Shown here: piece by piece, positions 12,826 to 56,439 of the stretch
Layout of the letters: each line of letters opens with the position of its first letter
Position numbering within the stretch: the stretch's first letter is position 1
Source of the DNA: Glaucostegus cemiculus
Lineage: Eukaryota
Direction of reading: 5' to 3'
Assembly: GCA_976551045.1 (NCBI GenBank)
Contig: CDPCPM010000025.1
Location: 4,774,001-4,838,000, forward strand
DNA length: 64,000 nt
Notes under the pieces: model-generated
Told to the model about the DNA's origin: nothing
Database searches by the model: none
What the model saw: the letters and a program-made list of their open reading frames with translations, nothing else
Translations under genes and position numbers: made by a program

Positions 12826-15823
12826 TCCACTCCAGGTCTTATGGGTCTGACCCTAAACAATAACTTACCTTGAGGCTCCACTTCAGGACCGAAGAGTCGC
12901 CGCCGCGTATCTCGGAAATGTGGCAAGAAGGCTGGGCTGCAGGCGAGGCTGAAACAACGTGGTTACAAGATACCCCTCCCAGCATACTACTAGCTAATGT
13001 CCAGTCCATTGAGAACAAAGTTGATGAACTAAGGGCAAGACTGACTTACCAAAGAGAAGTGAGGGACTGCTGTGTGCTATGTCTCACCGAAACGTGGCTC
13101 ATACCTGCCTCACCTGACTGTGCTATTCAACCTGCGGGCTTCTCAATTCATCAAATTGAGGTACGGCATCCTCGGGCAAGGTTAAAGGCGGAAGGGGTCT
13201 GCTTCTTGATCAATAACTTATGGTGCTCAGATGGGATGGTCCTGGCGAGCTCCTGCTCACCCAGCCTGGAATATCTAACGGTGAAGTGTCGACCATTCTA
13301 TCTGCCAAGGAAGTTCACTTCAGCTACCCTGATAGCAGTCTACATCCCACCACAGACAGACATGAAGCCTGCACTCAATGAGCTATACTCTGTGCTCAAC
13401 TACTTTGAGACAGGATATCCTAAAGCCCTCTTCATCATCGCAGGTGAATTCAACCAGGCCAACCTCAAGAGTGTGTTACCAAAATACTACCAACACATCT
13501 CCTGCTCCACCAGGGGGGCCAACACCCTAGACCACTGCAATACAACCATCAAAGGTGCCTTCTGAGCCACCCCTCGTCCTCACTTTGGGAAATCAAACCA
13601 CCAGGCTGTGCTCCTTCTCCCTGCATACAAACAGAAACTGAAATGGGAGGACCCGGTACGGAGAGTCGTGCAGTACTGGTCTGAGGAAACAGATGAACTC
13701 CTACATGACTGCTTTGAGAGAGTGGACTGGTCCAAGTTCAAAGACTCAGCTGCCAGCCTTGATGAGTATGCTACCACTATCACAGACTTTATCAGCAAGT
13801 GTGTGGAGACTGTGTACCAAAGAGGACAATACAGGTGTTCCCAAACAGAAAACCATGGCTGAACTGGAAGATTCACTCCCTACTGAAGGGGAGGACTGCT
13901 GCACACAAAGCAGGTCGTCCTGATCTGTACAAGAAATCCAGATATGACCTGTGGAAAGCTATCAGGGATGCCAAGAGACAATACGAACTCAAAATAGAGT
14001 CCCTGACCAGCCGTCAGCTATGGCAGTGCTTACATGCCATAACAGGCTACAAGACAAAGTCGGGCTGCATAGTTAACGACAGTGCATCCCTTCCTGATGA
14101 ACTTAACGCATTCTATGTGTGTTTTGAACAGATGGGAAGTGGATTGTCACCATCCATCCTGACAGCCGCCAGTGTAACTGAACCTATGATCACAGTTGAG
14201 GACATAAGATCAGTCTTCCAGAGAGTGAACACGAGGAAAGCACCTGGTCCAGATGATGTCCCTGGCCGTGTGCTCAGATATGGTGCTGATCAGCTGGCAG
14301 AAGTACTTGCAGACATACTTAATCTCTCCCTGCTTCAATCTCAGGTTTCCACCTGTTTTAAGAAGACCACTATCATCCCGGTACCAAAGAAAAACAAGGT
14401 AACACGCCACAATGACTACCGACCAGTGGCTCTGACATCCACCATCATGAAGTGCTTTGAGAGGCTGGTCATGGCACGCATCAACTCCAGCCTCCCAGAC
14501 AAGCTCGACCCATTGCAATTTGCCTATCGCCGAAACAGGTCTACAGCAGACGCCATCTCCCTGGCCCGACACTGAGCTCTGGAGCATCTGGACAGTAAAG
14601 GCACCTATGTTAGACTATTGTTTATTGACTACAGTGCTGCCTTCAATACAATAATCCCAAGCAAACTTGTCACCAAACTCCGAGACCTAGAAATCAACAC
14701 CTCCCTCTGTAACTGGATCCTTGACTTTCTAACAAACAGATTGCAATCAGTGAGGATAGGCAGCAATCCCTCCGGCACAATTATTCTCAACACTGGTGCC
14801 CCACAAGGCTGCGTCCTCAGCCCTCTACTCTACTTCTTACACACTCATCACTGTGTGGCCAGATTATGCTCTAGCTTCACCTACAAGTTTGCAAATGATA
14901 CCACCGTTGTAGGCCATATTTCAAACAGCGATGAGTCCAAGTACAGGAAGGAGATAGAGAGCTTAGTGGAATGGTATCATGACAACAGCCTTTCCCTCAA
15001 TGTCAAAACAAAAGAGCTGGTCATTGACTTCATGAAAGGGGGTGGTGCACATGCACCTGTTTACATCAATGGTGCTGAGGTCAAAAGGGTTGACAGCTTC
15101 AAGTTCCTGGGAGTGAACATCGTCAACAGCCTGTCCTGGTCAAATCACGTAGATGCCATGGCCAAGAAAGCTCACCAGCACCTCTACTTCCTCAGGAGGT
15201 TAAAGAAATTTGGTTTGTCCCCTTTGACTCTCACCAACTTTTATCGAGGCACCATAGAAAGCATCCTATCTGGATGTATCACAGCTTGGTACGGCAATGG
15301 CTCTGCCCAGGACCGCAAGAAACTGCAGAGAGTTGTGGACACAGCCTAGCACATCATGGACACCAGCCTCCCCTTCTTGGACTCTGTCTTTACCTCTCTC
15401 TGTCTTGGTGTAGCAGCCAGCATAATCAAAGACCCCACCCTCCCGGGACATTCTCTCTTCTCTCCTCTTCCATTGGGTAGAAGATACAGGTGCCTGAGGG
15501 CACATACCACCAGACTTAAGGATAGCTTCTACTCCACTGTGATAAGACTATTGAATGGTTCCCTTATATGATGAGATGGACCCTGACTCACGATCTACCC
15601 TGTTGTGACCTTGCACCTTATTGCACTGCACTTTCTCTGTAACTTTGACACTTTATTCTGTACTGTTAGTGTTTTTACTTGTACTACCTCAATGCACTCT
15701 GTACTAACCCAATGTAACTGCACTGTGTAATGAATTGATCTTTGCGATTGTTATGCAAGACAAGTTTTTCATTGTACCTCAGTACAAGTGACAATAATAA
15801 ACCAATACCAATATCAATACCAA
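12826..15823 (+). mobile_element. Near-full-length Rex1/Babar-clade LINE (APE endonuclease + RT), decayed
   Basis: PSILLANVQSIENK..CLTETWL and GEFNQ..TRGANTLDH (APE); [37 protein letters not shown] and FKFLGV (RT); 3' tail AATAAA + (CCAATA)n. Confidence 0.93.
12870..15349 (+). pseudogene. Rex-Babar endonuclease/reverse transcriptase ORF broken into four pieces
   Basis: ORFs 12870-13565, 13608-13862, 13799-14575 and 14618-15349, separated by stops and frameshifts. Confidence 0.9.
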
Positions 15824-21240: not shown

Positions 21241-24200
21241 TCTGTGTTTTGGAAAAGGAATAAAAGGATTAGTTAGTCTTTCATCCATGGTATGGCTGTG
21301 CAGTCACGGTAGCTGTGGATTAGCAAACCAGGGGTGGTGAATTGAAATACCTAGCATAGCAAATTGTTAAAAATAAAGTCCTGCAAGCTGCCAGATTGTT
21401 GTACAGTATAAAGAAAAAGGAAACTAGCTCCCTAATGTCTTTCAGGGAAAATAATCCACCATCCTTATCTGGTCTGCTCTGGGTAAGTGCAGACTTTTCC
21501 TCCAATACCAATACTACTAACTTCCCCTCTAATATCGTAATTAATGAATCTAACCTAAACCCATTCAGATGGGATAAAACTGATCAAAGTTCACAAAGCA
21601 GTACAATTCAATATTCCTTTAATAGTTTATAATACTTGCAAATATTGCACAAAATCTAAGTTATTATTCCCTTTAACAGACCCTTCTTTTAAACTTTAAG
21701 CACCACTTATGTTTTAGCGCTACTTAATGTGATTCTGAACACTATTCAATATACTTTGTGTACAGGTTCTGACAAAATTCCCTTGCAATTTACTAAAGTT
21801 CTCTCTGAAAACTCCTTTTCAATAAAAAATTACCACTGAGACAATTTGACTGATGAAACAATCCCTCTATTCTCTTCCACCACTACAACCCACCACCCTC
21901 ACCCCCTCAATACCCCACCACCAAGGTGACCCTCCCACCCCCAACTCCAATGCTTCCATCCTTGACTTTCCAATTGTACCTTTTTTCTCCTGTTGGTTGT
22001 TGTAAGTCCATGCATTGTTGATTCAATGAATGAGTTCCTTGTAATTGGTGGAACAGTGGTTGCTATGAATCTGTTAAGTTGTAACTTGTGCTGACAGGCT
22101 GACCACAGGAGTACACTGAAAAAAACAGATTAAGTTCCAATATGACACATGTCCTTGGATTAGCGTCATGTCCATCTTGTTTGCATTTCTGTATGAATGA
22201 CTTCTCCTGAATTTTGTTTGGCTTACATCCCCTTCTCATAATCCATTTAAAAATCCCTTTAGCACCTTATGGCATGCTAGGATATGATGCCTGGTTAATT
22301 TTTATGATGTGAAGGCTACTAACTTCCTTTATGCTACAGGTACCCATTACCTTTAATACTGGCCTTTTTTGAGTTAAATTATTCTTGCTGCAGTCCTGGA
22401 AACACTTCTCTCCAATGTCATACCATATAGTTCCATTTTTGATCCTGATAATTAATAAGAATTATGTTTCTGCACTGATAGGAAAAAAAAATGAGATGGA
22501 GTTGCAGAGTGAAATCTGGAAGTCAAACTGACATCTTGTTTTCTCTGATTTCAATTTGACTGAGAGAATAGATTTTGACCTTTGTGTTTTGCATATCCAA
22601 GGTGTGCAATGCTTTTGATGCGTGGCACACTTCTGATGAAATTCTTCTCTATTTACAGGGGCAGCACTGAAGCATAAATTGGAGGCTCCAGGAGGCACTT
22701 ACATTGAATCTCTGAAGGACAGGAGGCCCTGCAACTGATGTGGTGCAGCTCTAGTGTGCAGTCAGGAATAACAAGGACAGATCTTAATTCAGCCTATGCC
22801 TCCCACCAGGTTAGACATGTTCGGAGGTAGGTCAGGAGAATCAATCTGTTAGATCCAGATCTTGGATACAGTGCAGAATGTGTTTTAATGATCATGTGAG
22901 AAGAAGTGAGTAATTTTTTGGATTCACCAGTATCCTGGGTCTTTAAGCACACCCCATCTTTCACTTTGCCTTGTCAAATGTATTTCTCACTTGTACCAAA
23001 CTTTTAGTTTTCTCCACCTGCATGGTTCTGGCTGAACTCAGAGGAAATAGGTTAGAGGAATTACTTACAACATACTGTTGTCTTAAACAATAGAATAGGA
23101 AATTGTTCTCTTCAATTTTAAGTTGGGTATTAAAATCGCTAGTGCACAATGTGACAGCACAATGGACTGGCACATAAAAGATCAATGTATCAGCTTTTAA
23201 ACATTGCCACATACTGTTGGAGCTGCCAAACACTGCCATATATAGTGTTAAGTAAACAAGGGAATGGAAATCAGCTTAAGACTTCTTGATAAATTTTATC
23301 AGAATGTTCATTCCTAATAAATCAAGATGGACATGACGCTAACCCAAGGACATTTGTCATATTGGAATTTAATCTGCTTTTTTCAGAGAACTCTTGTGGT
23401 CTGCCTGTCAACAAATCATTCTTTGGATTTGTAAATCCAGAGGCATTTTCTACTTAATTTAAGTAATCTGTCACAGCTTTTCGATCTAATGTGAAGCCTT
23501 ATTATAAAACACAAGTGAATCACTTGTTGCAGTGTCATTTGTTCTCTGCCCACAGTAGATATAATTCACTGCACAGTTTAGAATTGTGTTGATGAAGTGG
23601 GATCAGCAAGCAAACAATGTGAAATCCTAAATTCTATTGTTGGTTGTGAATGTTCAGTTGATGAATAGCTCAATTTAACCCCACTGTGCATATCAGAAGG
23701 TAAAATATTGAAAAAGATGTATATGGCTGGATGGTTTTGTGGTTGTTTAACACTGCACAGGTAATTTCTTTCCATTATCTAACACTACCATGATGTACCA
23801 TTTGAAATATTTCTCAATGATACTCAGCTACAGATAATAATTAGTTGCTTGTTATGATTTTAGAGAAACATATGCTCTTTTTTTGTTCCAGGCTAAATCT
23901 TTTAAGGGGTGCAGTTGCATGAGCTTTGGCCGCTTGCCAATGCCTCTCTGAGTCAATGGCTTCTCTCATGTGTGAGCCTAATCAGCTAATCAGTATGTAT
24001 TGGGAAGCCATGCAGCAATAAATATATTAGAGCGAGTCTAGCTTGCCTCTTTATTTTGCTTTTATGTATTAGTTCACCTTGCAGGGAATGCAAATTGACA
24101 ATTAGAGCACATCCTGTTCACATTTATCTGACCATTTATTGGGAGATTATACACCCAAACTAACCAGATTAATTACAATCTTGTCAAACCAGCAGGAAGT

Positions 24201-29460: not shown

Positions 29461-30622
29461 AAGAACTGAACATGCCATCTTCAAGAGGAAGAGGCATAGG
29501 CAAGTGCCCAATATTAGACGTCTGAGCTTTGAGGGAAAACAGGCCAGAGCACCTATAGTGCAACTTCTCAAGGTAGTCTGAAATATGTATGAGTCCATCC
29601 ATTTGTATACATGCCTACATAACAGGCACAATACCACCCACATTTTAGGTATATTATGCTTGTTTTTGGTCCAGAACAATCCAAAATAAATCCACCATCA
29701 TCAAAGTCCATGCAGAAACACACACCGAGTAGGTTAAATGGCAAGAGGTGTTTGGTTAATGCTTGACTTGAAAACAGTAGGACATTTAGCAATTGGAAAC
29801 TTTCAGAATAAGCATGCTTGTAGAGGTAAGAGTTTCTAAGCTTCAACAGATGGCAATTTTTTTCCTCAGTCAATTTCATGTCGAGGTTAGGTTAGATTTG
29901 ATGAAATGATTGAGAACATTGTAATTAGATGTGTGATTTGGCGGACTGGCACCGAGATGTTTACATTTACCTAAAGGTAAATACATTGCTGTTTGGTATA
30001 TTTATATACACACTTGAAAAGTGTTGCATATTGTTTTGTCATCAAAGCTGTGGGCAACTTAGTTACAAACCTGAGAGCTCTGAGGTTTGCTACCTACACT
30101 GCTTTGATTTAACTGACTTTAGCTAAGTTGGGAGGAGTATAACAGTTGATTCAGTGCTTCCAAGGCAGAAAGAAAATAATCATACATTTCACTCCCTATC
30201 AAGTGGTATTGTTAGAAGTGTGCATTAGTGGATGTTAGGGCTTTGTTATTTTGCTTTCAGGGTAAAACAGTTTGGCCATACCCATTGTTCTTTTCATTGC
30301 AATGGAATAACTCAAACAGACAGGTGACAAGGGGAGTGAAATTAATATTGGAAATGAGTGGACAAGAACTCAAATTTATAATTTTGTCTTTTGAGAATGT
30401 AAACAAGCAAGTCTAAGCAAGTATTTAAATAGTGGCAATAAATAGAACAGACGGTACTTTTAGATGAGTAGTCCATGTTGAATTTATCTTAGCTGTTGAT
30501 TATTCACTTTAAACTTAGCTGTTGAATATTCATTTTAATTTCCGCCTTTGGTTATAATGAACCAAATATTTTTGGCATTCACTTCATAATCACCAGTTTA
30601 GTAATATTGTGTAATAATAACA

Positions 30623-31367
30623 TGCTGAGAACCAAGTAATGAAAAATGCACTCATCTCATTCAGGTGTTTTCTTTCCCCTACTGATGATGCTGTTATGTA
30701 GATGTACAAGCAAAGAAACTTGGTACATCTCTGAAACTTAATCACCTGTGTAGTCCTGTCTTTCTGCTGTGCATGTGAATAGATCAAACAATAATCCACT
30801 CGGAAAATATCCTTTATATGGTCAAAACATATCTGCCTAGCAATTCTGATGTAGCTATACAGGTGCACAGAAAAGTACAGCAAGGGGACTTTGATGATCA
30901 TTACAGTCATTAATGCCCCATTGTAAACTTCATAGAGTCATACAGCACAGAAACAGGTCCTTCAGCCCAACTCGTCCATGCTGACTCAGATAGACTTCAT
31001 GGTCAGCATGGACGAGTTGGGCTGAAGGACCTGTTTCTGTGCTGTATGACTCTATGATGTTTACAATGGGGCATTAATGACTGTAATGATCATCAAAGTT
31101 CCATTGCTGTGCTTTTCTGTGCAACCTTATTCTAACATTAGAATTGCTAGGTAGATATGCTTTAACCGAATAAAGGATATCTTTCCAGTGAATTATTGTT
31201 TGATTGATTCATATGCACAGCAGAAAGACAGGACTACACGTGATTACGTTTTAGAGATCTATCAAGTTTCTTTGCTTATACATCTACATCTACATAACAG
31301 CATCGTCAGTAGGGGAAAAAAACACCTGAATGTAATGAATGCATTTTTCGTTACTTGGTTCTCAGCA
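30623..31367. repeat. Long inverted repeat/palindrome: arms 30623-30985 and 31002-31367, 16-bp spacer
   Basis: The arms are reverse complements over ~365 bp; the inner 98 bp have one mismatch. The ORFs 30590-30910(-) and 31188-31391(+) mirror each other. Confidence 0.97.
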
Positions 31368-32452
31368 ATAATCCTAAACCAGGAATGCTAATGTGCTGAT
31401 GATGAAGGAACAAGGGGAAGGCGTGCAGTGAAGGGTGAGTGCAGTTGGAACAAACCCTTGCTGCCACTTACACAACATTTTCATTTGGAAGTTGCTGTGG
31501 GGATGGGTGGGGTGAATGGGAATCATTTGGAATATGCAGAATAGATACATGCTAATGGGAAAGAAAAATTCCAAGAGGAAGACCCATCTACTGTGTTTAA
31601 CTAAAAAGAATAAAGATGAAAGCAAACTTAAAGAAAAAGACATATTGTTGCCCAAAGAAAGGTGGAAGGTCAGAAGATTAGAGAAAATATAAAAAACAGC
31701 AAAGAATGACTGAAAGATTAATAACAGAAAATTAGAGTACAAGATAAAGTCAGCTACAAATGTAAAAACAGGTAGTAAAAGTTTCTTTGTGTAATTAAAA
31801 TAAAACTAGTTAAAAAAGTGACAGTTGTAATAAGTGGGTCTGGGGAATTAGTAATGGAGACTAAGGATATGGCAGGAGAATTAAACAAGTATTTTGCTTT
31901 GGTTTGTATGATTTATCAATGTTTCCAGTCATCTTGTGTATTCAGTCTTATGTGCTGGAAAATGTCCCTAGAATTTCAATGTGCATCTATATTATCATTA
32001 ACCTGTGTTGTGTCCTCTTCGGAATCCTCTGAAGCAGTATGAATAATAAGCCAGCACATAGATTTTCCTTGACTTCTGTTTGGCTGTGGTTCCCTAGTTC
32101 CAAATATCTCTCTTAATCTATGACATATTGGAAGCAGATTAACTAGACTGATACCTAGAATGGCCAGATTGTCCTCGTGGTACCAGTATGTGAACTGATG
32201 CTTAGCAAGCTTTGACCTAATGACTCTGTGTGTATTTTTATTCAACTCTTCATTCAAGAGTTTAAATGGATCCCACCTCTTTCTCCACCACCTCTTCTTT
32301 GTATGTTTGGGTTTGCAGTGACAATGTTTCTCTCCAGAAAGCCCACAAAAAACAACTCAAAAGCAATAAAATGACAGTCTGCATTCCTCACCATTACGTG
32401 GCCAGTGGCTAGCACAGATGAAGTTTCTAAGACGGAATGATCATTTCAGTAA

Positions 32453-34734: not shown

Positions 34735-36188
34735 GCTCTGATGAGGATTGGAAGGTGGCAAATGTTGTCCCCTTATTCATAAAAGGTAGAAGGGAGTCCA
34801 GGGAATTATAGACCAGTGAGCCTTATGTCTGTGGTGGGTAAGCTGTTGGAAAGGATTCTTAGAGATAGGATCAATGAGCATTTAGAGAATCATGGACTAA
34901 TTAGGGACAGCCATCATGGCTTTGTGAAGGGAAAATCATGTCTCACAAGCTTGATAGGATCCTTTGAGGAAGTGACCAAGAAGATTGATAAGGGTAGTGC
35001 AGTAGATGTGGTCTACATGGATTTTAGAAAGGTGTTTGACAAGGTTCCACATGGTAGGCTTCATCAGGATGTCAGAGGGCATGGGATCCAGGGAAGCTTG
35101 GCCATGTGGATTCAGAATTTGCTTGCCTGTAGAAAGCAGAGGGTTGTGGTGGAGGGAGTGCATTCAGATTGGAGGGCTGTGACTAGTGGTGTCCCACAAT
35201 GGTCGGTTCTGGGACCTCTACTTTTTGTGATATTTATTAATGATTTGGATGAGGGGGGGTAGAAGGGTGGGTTATCAAGTTTGCAGACAACACAAAGGTC
35301 AGAGGTGTTGTGGATGATGTGGAGGACTGTAGGAGATTGCAGATGGATATTGATAGGATGCAGAACTGGGCTGAGAAGTGGCAGTTGGAGTTCAATCCGG
35401 AGAAGTGTGAGGTGGTACACTTTGGAAGGACAAACTCCAAGGCAGAGTACAAGGTAAATAACAGGATTCTGGGTAGTGTAGATGAGCAGAGGGATCTAGG
35501 GGTTCATATCCATGATCACTGAAAGTTGCCTCACAGGTGGATAGGGTAGTTAAGAAAGCTTATAGGATGTTAGCTTTCATAAGTTGGGTGATCAAGTTTA
35601 AGATCCGCAAGGTAATGATGCAGCTCTACAAAACTCGGGTTAGACCACTTGGAGTATTGTGTCCAGTTCTGGTCGCCTCATTATAGAAAGGATATAGAAG
35701 AATTGGAAAGGGTGCAGAGGAGATTTACCAGGATGCTGCCTGGATTGGAGAGTATGGGTTATGAGGGGAGACTAAGGGAGCTAGGGCTTTACTCTTTGGA
35801 GAGAAGGAGGATGAGGGGAGACATGATAGAGGTATACAAAATATTAAGAGGAATAGATAGAGTGGACAGCCAGCACCTCTTTCCCAGGGCACCAGTGCTC
35901 AATACAAGAGGTCATGGCTTTAAAGTAATGGATGGGAGGTTCAAAGGAGATATCAGAGGGAGGTTTCTCAACCAGAGAGTGGCTGGTGCATGGAATGCAC
36001 TGCCTGGGGTGGTGGTGGAGGCAGGTACATTGGTCAAGTTCAAGAGATTGTTAGATAAGCATATGGAGGAAGTTAAAATAGGGGGATATGAGGGAGGAAA
36101 GGTTTAGATAGTCTTAAGCAAGGTCTAAAGGTAGGCACAACATGGTGGGCTGAAGGGTCTGTATTGTGCTGTATTGTTTTATTGTTCT
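34735..36188 (+). mobile_element. 5'-truncated CR1 LINE (RT domain to tail)
   Basis: ORFs 34816-35262 ([21 protein letters not shown]), 35310-35522 and 35649-36107; 3' UTR and (TATTGTTC) tail. Confidence 0.95.
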
Positions 36189-36409
36189 AATTACATTATT
36201 GGGGTCAAGCTGCTATTTTAATGGTGACGTTGATTGGGGAAGTGGCTGTGATTTCCAACTGGTCAATCCGGCAAAGAGTAGGGTCCAGAAGAGGTTCAAG
36301 ATTCCCCTTGTGGTTAACTTTATAGGTTAACTTTATAGGTTCAGACAGGAGGAGCAGAAGCAACTACTCCCTATCTTGCTGTTACATTAGGATGAATATA
36401 GTAGGTTTC

Positions 36410-38099: not shown

Positions 38100-39833
38100 G
38101 GCCTCCTGTACATTGGTGAGACCCAGCGCAGATTGGGTGACTGCTTCGTTGAGCACCTTTGCTCCATCTGCCACAACAGCCGGGACCTCCTGGTGACCAG
38201 TCATTTCAATTCCACATTGCACTCCCATACTGACATGTCTATCCATGGCCTCCTTTACTGCCACATTGAGACCAGGCACAGATAGGAGGAACAACACCTC
38301 ATATTCCACCTTGGGAGTCTCCAACCTGATGGCCTCAACATCAATTTTTTTAACTTCCAGTAACCCCACCCCTTCTTTTTCCTCCTTCCCCCCCACTCCT
38401 TTGTCTCCCCTTTTTCCTGTGGCTCCCTCCCTGCCCCCCCACCTTGATAACCTGCCCATCTCCTCTCCTTCCCTCCCCCATCCTTTATTCCATGGTTCAC
38501 TGACCTCTCCTGGATTCCTTCTTCAGCCCTTCTACCTACCACCTCTCACTTATTACATCTTCTCCCCCTTCCCCACCCACTACCTCCCCCCTCTCACCTG
38601 GACTGTCTTGTCAACTGAACTCAGTTGCCTGTGTGTGCTCCTCCCCCTCCCCCCACCTTCTTATTCTGGCTTTTGCCCTCTTCCTTCCCAGTCTTGATGA
38701 AGGGTCTCAGCCTGAAACATCGACTGTCTATTAGAACAATAGAACAATACAGCACAGAACAGGCCCTTCGGCCCATCAAGCTGTGCCATCCTACAAACAT
38801 CTCCCAAACTAACTCTTTCCACCCTCATATCCTACTATTCCACATTCTTCCATGTGCTTATCTAACAATCTCTTAAACCTGTCCAACGTATCTGCCTCCA
38901 CTACCACCCCAGGCAGTGCATTCCATGCACCACCACTCTCTGGGTGAAAAACTTCCCTCTGACATCTCCCCTATACTTTCCACCAATTATCTTAAAGGCA
39001 TGCCCTCTCGTCTTGAGCATCTGCGCTCTGGGAAAGAGGCGCTGACTATTAACTCTATCTATTCCTCTCAATATCTTAAACACCTCTATCAAGTCCCCTC
39101 TCATCCTCCTCCTCTCTAATGAGTAGAGCCCTAGCACCTTAAGCCTCTCTTTATATTCCATACCCTCCAATCCAGGCATCATCCTGGTAAATCACCTCTG
39201 CACCCACTCCAACGCCTCCACATCCTTCCTATAATGCGGCGACCAGAACTGAACACAATATTCCAAGTGTGGCCTAACTAGAGTTTTGTAAAGCAGCATC
39301 ATCACCTCTCTGCTCTTGAACTCAATCCCTTTATTTATAAAAGCCAACATCCCATAAGCCTTCTTAACAGCCCTATCCACCTGCAAGGCAACTTTGAGTG
39401 AACTGTGGATATGAACCTCCAGATCCCTCTGCTCCTCTACACTGCCAAGAACCTTGCCATTTACCTTATACTCTGTCCTGGAGTTTGTCCTCCCAAAGAG
39501 CACCACCTCACACTTCTCCGGATTAAACTCCATCTGCCACCTGTCAGCCCAGTTCTGCATCCTATCAATATCCCCCTGTAAGCTCCTACAGTCCTCCACA
39601 CTATCTACCACACCACCGATCTTGGTGTCATCTGCAAACTTACCAACCCATCCCTCCACTCCTTCATCTAAATCATCTATGAATATAACAAAGAGTAGAG
39701 GCCCCAGAACTGATCCCTGCGGGACTCCACTAGTCACACTATTTCCCTCCATGGATGCTGCCTGACCTGCTGAGTTCCTCCAGCACTATTTGTGTATTGC
39801 TCCAGATTCCAGCATCTGCAGAATTTCGTGTGT
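38100..39833 (+). mobile_element. Penelope-like element: GIY-YIG endonuclease C-terminus plus 3' terminus, split by a CR1
   Basis: 38100-38360 translates GLLYIGETQRRLGDCFVEH..SHFNS..EEQHLIFHLGSLQPDGLN (GIY-YIG second half). Flanked by a 13-bp TSD ctcaattaaaYgc (38087-38099, 39834-39846). Confidence 0.9.
38733..39738 (-). mobile_element. Young 5'-truncated CR1 LINE
   Basis: ORFs 39192-39752 (SGVPQGSVLGP, KFADDTK) and 38901-39182; tail (TATTGTTC)n; flanked by ctatt (38728-38732, 39739-39743). Confidence 0.95.
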
Positions 39834-41870: not shown

Positions 41871-43119
41871 TCTTCAATTTGTTCAAAAGTAAAAAAGACA
41901 TTAAAACTATCATTTATCTCTTTCTGTTTTAAATGGAGGTTGCGCTGTCCAAATATAAAGTTCCAACCTTACAGCAAAATTTCTCTTCAGGTGAATAGGG
42001 TAATGAGGGCTTAGTTATTTGTTGAATGATTGTAGGCTGCCTTCTAATGACAGGGTTAGTGGGCAAAGTCATTCTTTATTACTTGCCAAGGCCTTCCACG
42101 TGACCCAAACACAATGCAAATATTAAGGAATGGCTGAAGGGCTGCAGCTAATGTAAACACGCATTGAGGACAAACTTTAACTTGACTTTGGAACAGAACA
42201 CAAAGGACATACCAAGCTGGCAGAGCCTGCTGCACTTACGCTTTTCCTGATGTACCATTAAGTTCTCTGAGGTAGGGAATGTAAAATGATGGGTTACAGG
42301 CTGCAGTTGGGTCACCAGGCAACTATCACTTGAAAGTGTACAGTGATTCACAGCATTTGATCTATAATACTGAAGCCTGCTTTTACCAAATGGTATTATG
42401 ACAGATTTTTAAAAATAGATTTCAGACACAGTTCAGCTTCAGAAGTACATGCTAGGGGATGCACTAAAACTTGGTGCAGTCAATGCAAAGTCTTTATGGA
42501 GAAGGACTGCAGTCTAAGGTCTTGTCACCACCAGACATTGAGAGGCTAAATCCTATGTAAAAGTCCCTCAGATCCCTGATTTGCATATTGTCTAAAGACA
42601 CCACATGAGTGACAATGGTGCCTTGTACATGTAATGTGCTGACACTGCAAATGTAAAGACCCTATAACATTATGAATGTACAGACTGGATAGTGCTATGA
42701 ATATAAAGAAAATCATGCACTGTTTTTGCATTTCTTGTATGTATTGCTTATGAATAAAGTCTGCTTTCAAACTAAAAGAAGATATTGAACATTCATTGTA
42801 TTTGCAACCTGCTCCCTGGATCTGCTGATTTCTGGGAAAGGAATCTCCTCCTAATACCTAACCATTCTTCTACATACCCATGACCTCACTAGCAACTTTA
42901 TTTGAAAATAAACTATCATCATGAATGCAATCTATTTATTTAATCTTACAAACCTTGATGAAAAACACCACTGAATGTGATCTTTAAGCCCATCCTACCG
43001 GCCCATAAAAGCAGTGAACAAGAGGACCGGGAACATTGTTCAATTGATCATTAGCAGATCAATTGAACAAATACTTTGCATCTGATTTCACAAAGGAGGA
43101 CTCAAATAACCTCCCAGAA

Positions 43120-47540: not shown

Positions 47541-47609
47541 GTAATTTCCTCCCTTGCTTCTTTTAATAGCATGGGAAATGCTATTAAAAGAAGCAAGGGA
47601 GGAAATTAC
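47541..47609. repeat. Perfect inverted repeat, 32-bp arms, 5-nt loop
   Basis: gtaatttcctcccttgcttcttttaatagcat-gggaa-atgctattaaaagaagcaagggaggaaattac. Confidence 0.98.
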
Positions 47610-52191: not shown

Positions 52192-52427
52192 TGTAGCGAC
52201 TCACGATATCAGGATCTGAAACGCCGTCGGCCATCGCGGGGCAAACGCGCGAGTTCCTGCGATAGTGCCGGAAGGCGGGACTTCCGGCGGGAGTATGGCG
52301 TCACTTCTGCCGGCCATGTTTTTTGTAGTTCGGGATATGCGCGGCTTTTGGTGAGTTATTAAAAACGTGCTCAATCGAGTCTCCGTGTTCTCGTGTTCTT
52401 TTAAGTCGCACCCTGCTGGCTGCTACA
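52192..52427 (+). repeat. 5' LTR
   Basis: TGTAGC...GCTACA; direct repeat of 56204-56439. Confidence 0.97.
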
Positions 52428-52429
52428 TT

Positions 52430-52443
52430 TGGTGACCCCAATG
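52430..52443 (+). promoter_or_regulatory. Primer-binding site, tRNA-Trp
   Basis: tggtgaccccaatg versus the canonical tRNA-Trp PBS TGGTGACCCCGACG; both differences are CpG-type transitions. Confidence 0.85.
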
Positions 52444-52465
52444 ATTCCAGACAGCATCTGGAATC

Positions 52466-53158
52466 ATGGATACTGACTCCCACAACGCCATGGTACTCAA
52501 GCTTCCGGTTTTCTGGACCTCGCAGCCTCAAGTCTGGTTTGAAAAGGCAGAGGCCCAGTTCAGCGTCAGGGGCACCGAAGCCGACGCCACAAAGTATTAC
52601 TGCATGGTCAACGCCCTCGACCAGGACACGGCTGGTCGCATCATCGATTTCCTACGCCAGCCACCGACGGAGGACAGGTACGCCCGAATCAAGGCTCTCC
52701 TCATCCGCACGTTCGGCCTTTCCCTCAGCGACCGAGCCACGAGGCTCCTCCATGTGGACGGCCTAGGCGACCGCAAGCCCTCTGAGTTGATGGACGAGAT
52801 GCTGGCACTCATGGACGACCATCAGCCATGTTTCCTGTTCCGGCAGCTATTCCTCGAGCAACTCCCGGATGATATGCGCCCCCTCCTCGCCGACGGAGAT
52901 TTCAGCGACCTGCGTGCCCTCGCGGCCACAGCGGATGTCATTTGGTGCAGTCGGCGGCGAGGAGTGGCCTCCGCTTGCGTAGCGGCAGCCTTGCAGCCTC
53001 TGGCTAAGGTTCCGAAACCCAAACCGTCAGGGCCCGCAGAGGACAAAGACAAAGGCCCAGGGCAGTGGTGTTTCTACCACAAGAGGTGGGGAACAAATGT
53101 GCGCCGCTGCCAGCCGCCATGTTCTTTCCCGGGAAACGCCGAGGCCGGCCGTCATTAG
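52466..53158 (+). CDS. gag: Retrotransposon Gag (230 aa, open frame) with CHCC zinc knuckle
   Basis: LKLPVFW..PQVWF..AEAQF, LGDRKPSELM and C-terminal CFYH-x9-C-QPP-C. Confidence 0.9.
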   Translation: MDTDSHNAMVLKLPVFWTSQPQVWFEKAEAQFSVRGTEADATKYYCMVNALDQDTAGRIIDFLRQPPTEDRYARIKALLIRTFGLSLSDRATRLLHVDGLGDRKPSELMDEMLALMDDHQPCFLFRQLFLEQLPDDMRPLLADGDFSDLRALAATADVIWCSRRRGVASACVAAALQPLAKVPKPKPSGPAEDKDKGPGQWCFYHKRWGTNVRRCQPPCSFPGNAEAGRH

Positions 53159-53192
53159 TGGGTTCGACGGCTGGCCAGCGAGACAGCCTACT
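53131..53192 (+). promoter_or_regulatory. Putative -1 ribosomal frameshift signal (G GGA AAC + stem-loop/pseudoknot)
   Basis: The heptamer is in gag phase and pol is in the -1 frame. Stem 53143-53153/53166-53176; loop 53157-53164 can pair with 53185-53192. Confidence 0.8.
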
Positions 53193-56100
53193 CTTCCTTT
53201 GAGACCGGATCACTGGGCGGCGTTTCCTGGTGGATATGGGGGCCGAAATCATCGTCCTTCCCCCCTTCAACATGGATACCCGCAACGCAGTCAAAGGCCC
53301 TGAACTCACCGCTGCGAACGGCTCTACCATCCGCACCTACGGCTTGCGCACCATCCTGTTATGTTTTGGGATCAGTTCATTTACCTGGACTTTCACTGTA
53401 GCAGCGGTATTGCAGCCACTGCTAGGGTTGGATTTCGTGCGTGCCAACCGCTTGCTGGTCGATCTGAAGGGCCGGTGTCTGGTCCATGCTGAGACTTTCC
53501 AAAGCTACCAGCTCGGGAAGGCCCGGTCACCTGCCCCCCACCTTGACTCTGTTGCACCCTCCAACAACAAGTTTGCTAAGGTGTTAGCAGAGTTTCCTTC
53601 CATTATCACCCCGCAATTCTCCGCTGCAGTCCCCAAGCACGGCGTGCAGCACTACATCACCACACAGGGACCTCTGCTACACGCCCGTGCCCGCAGGTTC
53701 CCGCCCGACAAGCTCCGCCTCGCCAAGGAGGAGTTTCGCAGGATGGAGGAGTTGGGCATCATCCGCCGTTCCGACAGCCCATGGGCATCCCCGCTCCGCA
53801 TGGTGCCCAAAGCAGCGGGGGGCTGGAGACCCTGGGGAGACTACAGGAGGCTCAATGATGCCACGACTGCCGACAGGTACCCTGTGCTCCACATCCAGGA
53901 CTTCACAGCGAACCTCCATGGGGCGACCATTTTCTCTAGGATTGACCTGGTCCGGGGATACCATCAGATCCCTGTTCACCCCGACGACGTGCCCTAAACA
54001 GCCCTCATCACCCCCTTTGGGCTGTTCGAATTCCTCCGAATGCCTTTCGGCCTAAAAAACGCCACCCAGACTTTTCAACGGCTAATGGACTCAGTGAGCA
54101 GAGGCCTCAATTTCACTTTTGTGTACCTGGATGACATCCTGGTAGCCAGCAAGTCGCGCAAGGAGCACTCAGCCCATCTCCGTCAGCTCTGCCAGCGCCT
54201 GAGCGACCACGGGTTGGTGATCAACTTGGCGAAGTGCCAGTTCGGGCTGCGGGAGATCGACTTCTTGGGCCACAGGGTGAACCAGCATGGCGCCGCCCCG
54301 CTACCCGACAAGGTACAGGCCGTCCTCCAATTTCCCAAGCCCTACACGGTCAAGGGCCTGCAAGAATTCGTGGGAATGGTGAACTTTTACCATCGTTTTG
54401 TGCCCGCAACAGCACGCATCATGCGGCCCTTGTTCGGACTCATGGCCGGCAAGGCCAAGGATGTTGTTTGGGACACGGAGGCCTCGGCAGCTTTCGATCA
54501 GGCTAAGGAGGCACTGGCCAAGGCAACACTTCTGGTGCACCCAAGAGTCGACATCCCCACAGCGCTCACTGTCGACGCTTCCGACACGGCGGTCGGTGGG
54601 GTCTTGGAACAACTCGTTGAGGGCCAGTGGAGACTGCTTGCTTTTTTCAGCCGATATTTGTGGCCGCCAGAGGTCAGGTACAGCGTTTTTGATAGGGAGC
54701 TGCTGGCTCTTTACCTGGCTGTCCGCCATTTCCGTTATTTCCTTGAGGGGAGGTACTTTACCATCTATACGTTTGCCCTGGCAAAGACGTCGGACCCGTG
54801 GTCGGCTCGGCAGCAACGGCACCTCTCCTTCATTTCGGAGTTTACCACCGACATTCGCCACATCGCTGGGAAGAGCAATGTGGTCGCCGACATGCTGTCC
54901 CGCTCCCACATCCATTCAGCGACCACCCCAGCCACAGGCGTCGACTACACAGTGCTGGCGCAAGCGCAGCAGGCAGATGACGAGATCCCGGCATACTGCA
55001 CCTCGCTCTCGGGACTCCGGCTGGAAGATGTTCCTGTTGACCCTACGGCGATCCGGCTCCTGTGTGACATGTCTACTGGCAGACCCTGGCCGGTGGTGCC
55101 AGCAGCGTGGAGACGACTGGTTTTCGACGCCCTGCATAGCCTGGCCCACCCGCCCATCAGGGCGACTATCAGGATGGTGGCAGAAAAATTCGTATGGCAT
55201 GGTCTACATAAGCTGGTGGGGCAGTGGGCCAGAACCTGCATGCACTGTCAGACAGCCAAGGTCCAGCAGCACGTGAAGGCTCCCCTCCATCATTTTCAGC
55301 CAACGCTTGGCAGGTTCCAGCACATTCACGTGGACATCGTCGGACCACTGCCAGTTTCCCGGGGCGCCAGGTATATTTTCACTGTGGTGGACAGGTTCAC
55401 CAGGTGGCCAGAGGCAGTGCCGCTGGCAGACACGTCCACCACGTCCTGTGCCAGAGCCCTCATTGCCCACTGGATTGCCCGGTTTGGCCTCCCAACGGAC
55501 GTTATCTCCGACCGAGGGGCGCAGTTCACGTCCGGCTTGTGGACGGCACTGGCGCAGCTCTTGGGTTCCCTCCTGCATCACACCACGGCATACCACCCGC
55601 AGGCCAATGGTTTGGTGGAGCGTTTCCACCGGCACCTCAAGTCCGCCCTGATGGCTCGCATGCAGGGACCTAACTGGACAGACGAGCTCCCCTAGGTCCT
55701 GCTGGGCATCTGTACGGCCCCCAAGGAAGATTTGGGCACCTCCTGAGCCAAGCTGGTCTACGCTTCCCCCCTCACGGTACCGGGCGAGTTTGTACCAGGG
55801 GCTCAGGACCCAGCAGGGACCCCGGCGGAAGTGTCAGCGAAGCTGCGGGCCAAGGTGGGGACCTTGGCACTGATCCCGGCCTCCAGGCACGGCACAGCGC
55901 CTTCTTTCGTTCCGAAGGACCTCCAGGGCTGTGAGTATGTTTTCATCCGCCGGGGGGCACATGGGTCACCCCTGCAGAAGCCGTACGAGGGGCCTTTCCA
56001 GGTGGTTCGGCGCGGTGGTTCAACATATGTCATCGAGGTTGGGGGTCGTGAGCAGACTTTCACAGTGGACTGCCTGAAGCCGGCGCATCTGGACATTGCA

Positions 56101-56208
56101 CACCCGGTCAGGGTGCCTTCGCCACGCCGGCGGGGTAGGCCTCCCAAGCTGGGCGATTGGGTTGATGGCCCCGTGCCTCCGCTGGGCATTTCTGGGGGGG
56201 TGGTGTAG
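53131..56208 (+). pseudogene. pol: Gypsy pol (protease, RT, RNase H, integrase) with premature stops
   Basis: FLVDMGAE (protease-like), YLDD, VDASD, H-H-C-C Zn finger, HIHVDIVGP..SDRGAQF..VERFHR. Stops at ~53200, 53995 and 55693; the RNase H DHKPL motif is deleted. Confidence 0.93.
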
Positions 56209-56439
56209 CGACTCACGATATTGGGATCTGAAACGCCGCCGGCCGTCGCGGGGAAACGTGCGAGTTCCCGCGATAGTGCCGGAAGGCGGGACTTCCGGTG
56301 GGAGTATGACGTCACTTCCGCCGGCCATGTGTTTTTGTAGTTCGAGATATGTGCGGCTTTTGGTGAGTTATTAAAAACGTGCTCGATTGAGTCTCCGTGT
56401 CCTTGTGTTCTTTTAAGTCGCACCCTGCTGGTTGCTACG
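56204..56439 (+). repeat. 3' LTR
   Basis: Direct repeat of the 5' LTR; terminal CA mutated to CG. Confidence 0.97.

What the first reader, a model, noticed from the sequence alone, without database searches (positions are those of the whole stretch)
30623..31367. ~745-bp palindrome with a centre-to-edge identity gradient, centred on a CR1/SINE 3' tail
Seen: two ~365-bp arms with a 16-bp spacer. The inner 98 bp differ at one base, while the outer ~265 bp are roughly 85-90% identical with indels (hand count). The innermost ~55 bp of each arm is a CR1-type 3' end (gtcagcatggacgagttgggctgaaggacctgtttctgtgctgtatgactctatg); the rest is not a repeat I recognise. Inference: an old fold-back inverted duplication seeded at a retroelement end, whose centre has since been re-homogenised by arm-to-arm conversion or cruciform repair, or kept paired by selection on a hairpin RNA. 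Long palindromes with short spacers are normally unstable. If transcribed it would give ~350 bp of dsRNA (ADAR or endo-siRNA substrate).
Basis: partly seen in the sequence, partly recalled or inferred. Interest (0 to 1): 0.7.

Follow-up and report, generated by a model that had tools for sequence, protein, structure and literature searches.

The report
Fold-back duplication with a re-copied core
A short stretch of a fish genome was copied backwards beside itself at the broken end of a jumping-gene fragment, and the middle of this mirror repeat was later re-copied to near perfection; this looks like an ordinary DNA replication or repair accident rather than a gene.

Summary
The palindrome is real: arms 30623-30985 and 31002-31367, 16-nt spacer. 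Arm identity changes in a step, not a gradient: 1 difference in the inner 98 bp, 33 events in the outer 274 columns (permutation p 0.0025). The spacer continues the LINE 3' end (11/16 to a mixed family consensus), so the centre is one 72-nt LINE 3' fragment folded back at its 5' end. It is not a MITE: outer-arm depth is about 1.2-3.7 times flank depth in three relatives. New here: all four runs laid hold a third copy elsewhere (183 bp of arm, reaching the LINE tail in three runs), ending at exactly 30747 and about as diverged from the left arm (6.5-11%) as the arms are from each other (9%). Five left-arm mutations private to this lineage run up to the core edge, so the core was probably re-copied after the species split. 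Best reading (0.7): a small snap-back inverted duplication, later corrected by replication template switching, with no function. No host gene, RNA family or G-U bias was found. Both processes are known; interest is modest.

The parts
30623..30985 (.). Left arm (363 bp)
31002..31367 (.). Right arm (366 bp); own-species contig X1 record 7 shows the 18 substitutions and 2 gaps expected of it when laid on the left arm over 30702-30852
30986..31001 (+). 16-nt spacer; the upstream continuation of the LINE 3' UTR on the + strand (11/16 ungapped to the loose-end consensus; 7/16 in the other orientation)
30986..31057 (+). 72-nt 5'-truncated LINE 3' end (CR1-type by recall), tail pointing outward
   Evidence: (thousands of contigs pile on its mirror copy)
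30930..30985 (-). Inverted 56-nt copy of the LINE tail, identical to 31002-31057
30888..31099 (.). Near-perfect core: 98-bp arms (56 LINE + 1 mismatch + 41 non-LINE) around the spacer, 212 nt in all
   Evidence: DNA hairpin -122.3 kcal/mol
30747..30967 (.). Segment that also exists as a third copy elsewhere; outer boundary at exactly 30747 in 4 of 4 runs, reaching the LINE tail (30967-30971) in the 3 relatives
   Evidence: table 8 (X1 rec 8, X3 rec 30 and 32, X10 rec 16, X13 rec 24); depth bookkeeping
30578..30622 (.). Possible older outer rim pairing with 31368-31410 (30 of 44 columns); borderline
30622..30624 (+). ATG at the left junction, also at the tail/flank junction 31057-31059: possible 3-bp target duplication or microhomology; weak, and at odds with the rim if that is real

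Best explanation
A small inverted duplication made by snap-back synthesis, later corrected in its centre by replication template switching; non-functional. Step 1 (inferred): a DNA 3' end lying 72 nt inside a LINE 3' UTR (a truncated cDNA during target-primed reverse transcription, or a broken or invading end copying an older LINE fragment with its flank) folded back, leaving a 16-nt loop. It copied 56 nt of tail and about 307 nt of flank in reverse, then rejoined the upstream DNA. The third copy elsewhere is either the donor of the tail plus 183 bp or a slightly later copy of the new locus; my data do not separate these. Step 2 (timing partly shown, mechanism inferred): the arms drifted to about 9% substitutions. 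After the split from the relatives, the central 212 nt formed a hairpin in single-stranded lagging-strand DNA and one arm templated the other over about 98 bp, erasing the differences there. If the outer rim is real, this re-copying happened more than once with nested tracts.
For: Step in identity, p 0.0025; the core extends 41 bp beyond the LINE part (P of 0 events 0.005, or 0.02 on substitutions only), so it is not just two similar repeat copies. Spacer is LINE sequence. Both arms share non-majority LINE bases (7 of 56 positions differ from the majority of 14 other window tails; A at 31029 in 1 of 14). Outer arm low-copy. Five sites (30733, 30803, 30848, 30876, 30884) where every covering contig of X3, X10 and X13 carries the right-arm letter: left-arm mutations private to this lineage, up to 4 bp from the core (table 3). 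At 7-8% flank divergence 7-8 arm differences are expected in 98 bp since the split; 1 seen, P 0.003-0.007. Precedents read as passages: snap-back on the cDNA itself at R2 5' junctions (PMC11204384); L1-linked inverted duplications by self-annealing (bioRxiv 10.1101/2024.12.14.628481); arm homogenisation by template switching (PMC8604942); 100-200 bp lagging-strand gap (PMC7999016); inverted duplications of median 284 bp are the commonest inversion class outside mobile-element insertions in 1,019 humans (PMC12350158).
Against: No empty (pre-duplication) site was seen. With the lowest local divergence estimate (3.3%, X13 rec 22) the post-split test is not significant (P 0.17). The spacer differs at 5 of 16 from the family consensus, more than a fresh insertion of this age should (P 0.001-0.04), which argues against snap-back during a fresh insertion, although that consensus mixes subfamilies (agreement about 0.55). 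Template switching can invert spacers, so spacer orientation does not show which arm is the original. The core in relatives is unresolved (161 rows of table 3 hidden). The homogenised arms in the yeast paper's passages are 7-16 bp, far shorter than 98 bp.
Confidence: 0.7

Rival explanations
1. Later LINE insertion into an older palindrome: the tail landed in one arm near the centre, and a single 98-bp conversion copied it with 41 bp of flank into the other arm.
For: The left-flank-linked contig of X10 (rec 15) and X3 rec 31 stop matching 6 nt into the tail, with 29 and 13 loose letters. A possible older rim suggests the palindrome predates the 9% tier.
Against: The third copy carries the same tail/flank junction and is as old as the arm split. 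The LINE part is decayed, not young. Six matching tail bases before the loose letters fit a tail-repeat variant better than absence of the tail (inference).
Confidence: 0.1
2. The core is kept paired by selection on a hairpin RNA (miRNA-like or endo-siRNA source against the LINE family, or an ADAR substrate).
For: A transcript would fold into a very long duplex; the core is LINE-derived, so its small RNAs would have many targets; template switching has produced miRNA hairpins (PMC10710096 passages).
Against: No G-U bias (11 against 6, p 0.33); no Rfam match at gathering score; no host exon found (0 of 299 ORFs at Pfam cut-off); 97 of 98 pairs is more perfect than selection on a stem usually needs (my knowledge); X10 shows no second outer arm.
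Confidence: 0.08
3. A low-copy mobile element (foldback or MITE type) whose long terminal inverted repeats are the arms.
For: Long inverted arms; a third related copy exists.
Against: Depth only about 1.2-3.7 times flank in relatives; the third copy is partial; no target-site duplication outside the arm ends; no other copy in the 64-kb window; no protein homologue of the 115-aa frame on the left arm (lengths 63-202 only).
Confidence: 0.06
4. The near-identical core is an assembly or polishing artefact.
For: No read spanning the centre was available; the own-species run X1 has no unique cover of 30860-30929 among listed records.
Against: The right arm's outer part is reproduced by count in an own-species contig (18 substitutions, 2 gaps), which may be the source sample; differences look natural (17 transitions, 8 transversions); flanking 88%-identical arms would anchor reads uniquely (inference).
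Confidence: 0.06

Closest known systems
Small germline inverted duplications (human long-read SV class; PMC12350158, passages)
   Same: Size (363 bp against a median of 284 bp) and a local reversed copy.
   Different: This one is old, apparently shared with relatives, hinged inside a LINE 3' end, and has a re-homogenised core.
Snap-back 5' junctions of R2 insertions (PMC11204384, passages) and L1-induced inverted duplications (PMC11702581 and its 2026 version, passages)
   Same: A retroelement end self-primes, copies in reverse and rejoins upstream DNA.
   Different: In the passages read, R2 snap-back copies the cDNA or nearby rDNA and the L1 inverted duplications lie on the reciprocal end; here the copy would run through the whole cDNA and about 307 bp of downstream flank. 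No empty site was seen here.
Quasi-palindrome correction by template switching (PMC8604942, PMC10710096, passages)
   Same: One arm overwrites the other next to a short spacer, in one step.
   Different: Tract of about 98 bp against 7-16 bp arms (yeast) or 30-55 nt stems (primates) in those passages.
Flank-derived 5' extra nucleotides of zebrafish ZfL2-2 (PMC4245944, passages)
   Same: An L2-clade LINE whose 5' junction carries sequence copied from its flank.
   Different: Those are described as several nucleotides; here it is hundreds, inverted.
MITE / foldback DNA elements (recalled)
   Same: Long inverted arms.
   Different: Not high-copy, no target-site duplication at the arm ends.

Membership tests
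Small inverted (fold-back) duplication | Adjacent reversed copy of local low-copy DNA with a short unduplicated loop | tested here: met
Small inverted (fold-back) duplication | Ancestral allele with a single arm | tested here: inconclusive
   X10 shows one outer arm only, but loss or assembly effects cannot be excluded; no joint from 30622 to 30928 among the 15 joints shown (165 hidden)
Snap-back product of LINE insertion | Hinge at the 5' truncation point of one LINE fragment | tested here: met
   spacer 11/16 to family upstream sequence, p 0.0006
Snap-back product of LINE insertion | Target-site duplication or microhomology and an empty site | tested here: inconclusive
   3-bp ATG at both junctions; no empty site seen; possible rim conflicts
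Snap-back product of LINE insertion | LINE fragment no older than the duplication | tested here: inconclusive
   spacer 5/16 off a mixed consensus; third copy may be an older donor
Template-switch homogenised quasi-palindrome | Contiguous near-perfect tract abutting the spacer with a sharp outer edge | tested here: met
Template-switch homogenised quasi-palindrome | Sister taxa with imperfect arms, or concerted changes in both arms | tested here: inconclusive
   private left-arm changes reach 30884, none seen inside; relatives' core letters not shown
MITE / foldback transposon | Many dispersed full-length copies | tested here: not met
   depth about 1.2-3.7 times flank in 3 of 3 relatives
MITE / foldback transposon | Target-site duplication flanking the arm ends | tested here: not met
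   junction contexts
Hairpin RNA gene (miRNA / endo-siRNA locus) | Expression and processed small RNAs | not testable with these tools
   no RNA data were available to lay
Hairpin RNA gene (miRNA / endo-siRNA locus) | Strand-biased G-U tolerance or known family match | tested here: not met
CR1 clade (identity of the tail) | Tail belongs to RT-coding non-LTR elements | tested here: met
   matches at 36146-36174 and 38739-38775, the 3' ends of fragments with RVT_1 hits
CR1 clade (identity of the tail) | Clade placement by RT phylogeny or repeat library | not tested
   name recalled; no repeat library at hand

The most novel reading that the evidence does not exclude
The fold-back put unique DNA upstream of an intact LINE 3' recognition end. 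A germline transcript through the left arm was then reverse-transcribed from that end, and the third copy is its 5'-truncated retrocopy (truncation at 30747). The locus would be a snap-back-born, SINE-like mini-master and a source of long double-stranded RNA against its own LINE family, kept symmetric by repeated nested template switches (tiers of about 99%, 88% and 68%).
Probability: 0.12. Interest if true: 0.65.

Novelty: new member of a known kind. Interest (0 to 1): 0.3.

Why it matters
As most likely read, it is a clear fossil of two known processes in a slowly changing vertebrate genome: snap-back duplication at a LINE end and template-switch correction of a palindrome over an unusually long tract (about 98 bp, close to the size of the lagging-strand gap). 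With assembled relatives it would let one date the correction and test whether tract length is set by that gap. If the third copy proves to be a retrocopy, it would show one route by which SINE-like elements are born.

Tried and rejected
No whole genome is held, so no direct copy count. Sequencing runs: 13 listed, no RNA holder listed; this says nothing on expression. Rfam: 0 matches at gathering score in 64 kb. Host gene: 299 of 371 stop-free frames of 42 aa or more outside repeats were scanned against Pfam (72 not scanned, 71 of them beyond 50462); 6 weak hits, none at cut-off; short exons would be missed. Protein search with the 115-aa frame on the left arm: no candidate. Two exact patterns from the arm in metagenome contigs: 0 and 0. 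Earlier findings of the scan: nothing. Rejected: smooth gradient; G-U strand bias; reading the records that stop at 30747 as right arms clipped at the 2-nt indel (X1 rec 8 has 11 differences where a right arm needs 17, overlaps rec 7, and none of the four lays its remainder on 30623-30746); a splice-donor origin of the 30747 boundary (a donor-like site lies there on the - strand, but the match stops one base short). Nine paper searches listed no report of a LINE-tail-hinged palindrome with a stepped core in cartilaginous fish; the library lacks most subscription papers, I read passages only, and no supplements were opened, which may hold matching junction examples.

Full report
Observation. 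The inverted repeat is present as described: left arm 30623-30985, right arm 31002-31367, 16-nt spacer. Alignment gives 25 substitutions (17 transitions, 8 transversions) and 9 indels in 372 columns. One event lies in the inner 98 columns and 33 in the outer 274 (Fisher p 0.0004; cut-point-corrected permutation p 0.0025; p 0.005 after merging clusters). The profile is a step: 0, 2, 8, 8, 4, 6 events per 50 columns from the centre and 6 in the last 72, with no trend in the outer part (KS p 0.19). The single core mismatch sits at the junction between the LINE tail and its flank. The core therefore has 56 identical LINE bases and 41 identical non-LINE bases, and the latter alone are unlikely at the outer rate (P 0.005 on events, 0.02 on substitutions). 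A further 45 bp outside the arms may pair weakly (30 of 44 columns; anchored p 0.04, local p 0.17); I treat this as borderline.

The centre. The inner 56 bp match the 3' ends of many repeats in the window, two of which end LINE fragments with RVT_1 hits. Contigs of other family copies continue beyond 30985 with a consensus whose first 16 letters match the spacer, read on the + strand, at 11 of 16 without gaps (7 of 16 the other way; p 0.0006). So the centre is a single 72-nt LINE 3' fragment (30986-31057) folded back at its 5' end. Both arms share bases that depart from the majority of 14 other window tails at 7 of 56 positions, so one copy was made from the other, or was overwritten by it. 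Spacers can be inverted by template switching (PMC8604942, passages), so orientation does not prove which arm came first.

Public data. No genome is held. Thirteen runs from five coded organisms hold part of the region. The output was cut (40 difference rows shown, 161 hidden; 32 pieces shown). X1 is the same or a very close species: a 197-nt flank contig has no difference, and record 7 shows the 18 substitutions and 2 gaps predicted for the right arm; it may be the source sample. X3, X10 and X13 differ by 7-8% in long flank contigs (3.3% in one short one). Depth over the outer arm is 36-49 against 13.4 (X3), 9-20 against 7.7 (X10) and 9-14 against 5-6 (X13), while the tail draws thousands of contigs. 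The outer arm is therefore low-copy and no MITE family. A left-flank-linked arm is present in all three relatives. A second outer-arm piece is inferred from unexplained depth in X3 and X13 but not in X10.

A third copy. In X1 it overlaps the right-arm contig and has 11 differences where a right arm needs 17, so it is neither arm. It differs from the left arm by 6.5-11%, like the 9% between the arms. It is not in the window. Either it is the donor, from which tail plus 183 bp were copied here just before the fold-back (one event, equal ages, and an older LINE fragment, which fits the 5 of 16 spacer differences), or it is a later copy of this locus, possibly a 5'-truncated retrocopy primed at the LINE tail. 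I could not read its sequence.

Timing of the core. At 30733, 30803, 30848, 30876 and 30884 every covering contig of X3, X10 and X13 carries the right-arm letter, so these are left-arm mutations of this lineage, the last 4 bp from the core edge. At 7-8% divergence, 7-8 arm-to-arm differences should have arisen in 98 bp since the split; one is seen (P 0.003-0.007; P 0.17 with the 3.3% estimate). The core was thus probably overwritten, or constrained, after the split. Against a simple picture: the unbroken left-flank-linked contig of X10 carries right-arm-like letters at 30818, 30860 and 30863, which could reflect an inversion or conversion between arms, or an assembly mosaic; and it, like X3 record 31, stops matching 6 nt into the tail. 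The relatives' core letters are among the rows I could not see.

Mechanism. Shown: structure, step, LINE hinge, low copy number, third copy. Inferred: snap-back origin and template-switch correction. Precedents, all read as passages only: R2 cDNA 3' ends prime synthesis most often on the cDNA itself before joining upstream DNA (PMC11204384); L1-induced ends self-anneal by 2-bp microhomology to give inverted duplications (PMC11702581 and bioRxiv 10.1101/2024.12.14.628481); ZfL2-2 5' extra nucleotides derive from flanks (PMC4245944); template switching homogenises arms (PMC8604942) and creates hairpins (PMC10710096); the eukaryotic Okazaki initiation zone is 100-200 bp (PMC7999016), close to the 212-nt core; 277 inverted duplications of median 284 bp were found in 1,019 humans (PMC12350158). 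The same window holds a perfect 32-bp fold-back at 47541-47609, so such events are not rare here.

Function. A transcript would fold strongly, but nothing points to an RNA product: no Rfam match, no strand bias of G-U-compatible changes (11 against 6, p 0.33), no host exon among 299 of 371 frames scanned, no protein relative of the one long frame. Expression could not be tested.

Verdict. Real and well above chance; a new member of a known kind (small inverted duplication with a template-switch-corrected core), most likely neutral (0.7). Nine paper searches listed no description of this arrangement in these fish, within the limits of the library. Interest 0.3; the most novel open reading, a snap-back-born mini-master that spawned the third copy, has probability about 0.12 and would deserve 0.65.

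Noticed in passing
window 47541-47609: Perfect palindrome of 32-bp arms with a 5-nt spacer and no outer similarity by eye; looks like a recent template-switch fold-back.
   Followed up: partly
window 22089-22182 and 23320-23413: Inverted pair of 94 bp, 89% identical, 1.14 kb apart; old terminal repeats or another inverted duplication.
   Followed up: partly
window 43036-43070: Short perfect inverted repeat, 14-bp arms, 7-nt spacer.
   Followed up: no
window 52192-56438 and about 100-2900: LTR-retroelement copies with RT, RNase H and (first copy) integrase hits; the first has 236-bp terminal repeats 92% alike; frames are broken. Gypsy-like by recall.
   Followed up: no
window 12864-15787, 34783-36191, 38730-39785: Decayed non-LTR (LINE) fragments with RVT_1 hits; 35178-36191 and 38730-39738 are inverted copies, 81% alike, 2.5 kb apart.
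   Followed up: no
window 30851-30863: Cluster of changes between the arms; the right-arm form looks derived, since the third copy in X10 and both X13 contigs lack its indels.
   Followed up: partly
window 30483-30534: Two tandem 26-nt copies, 85% alike, 90 bp left of the palindrome.
   Followed up: no
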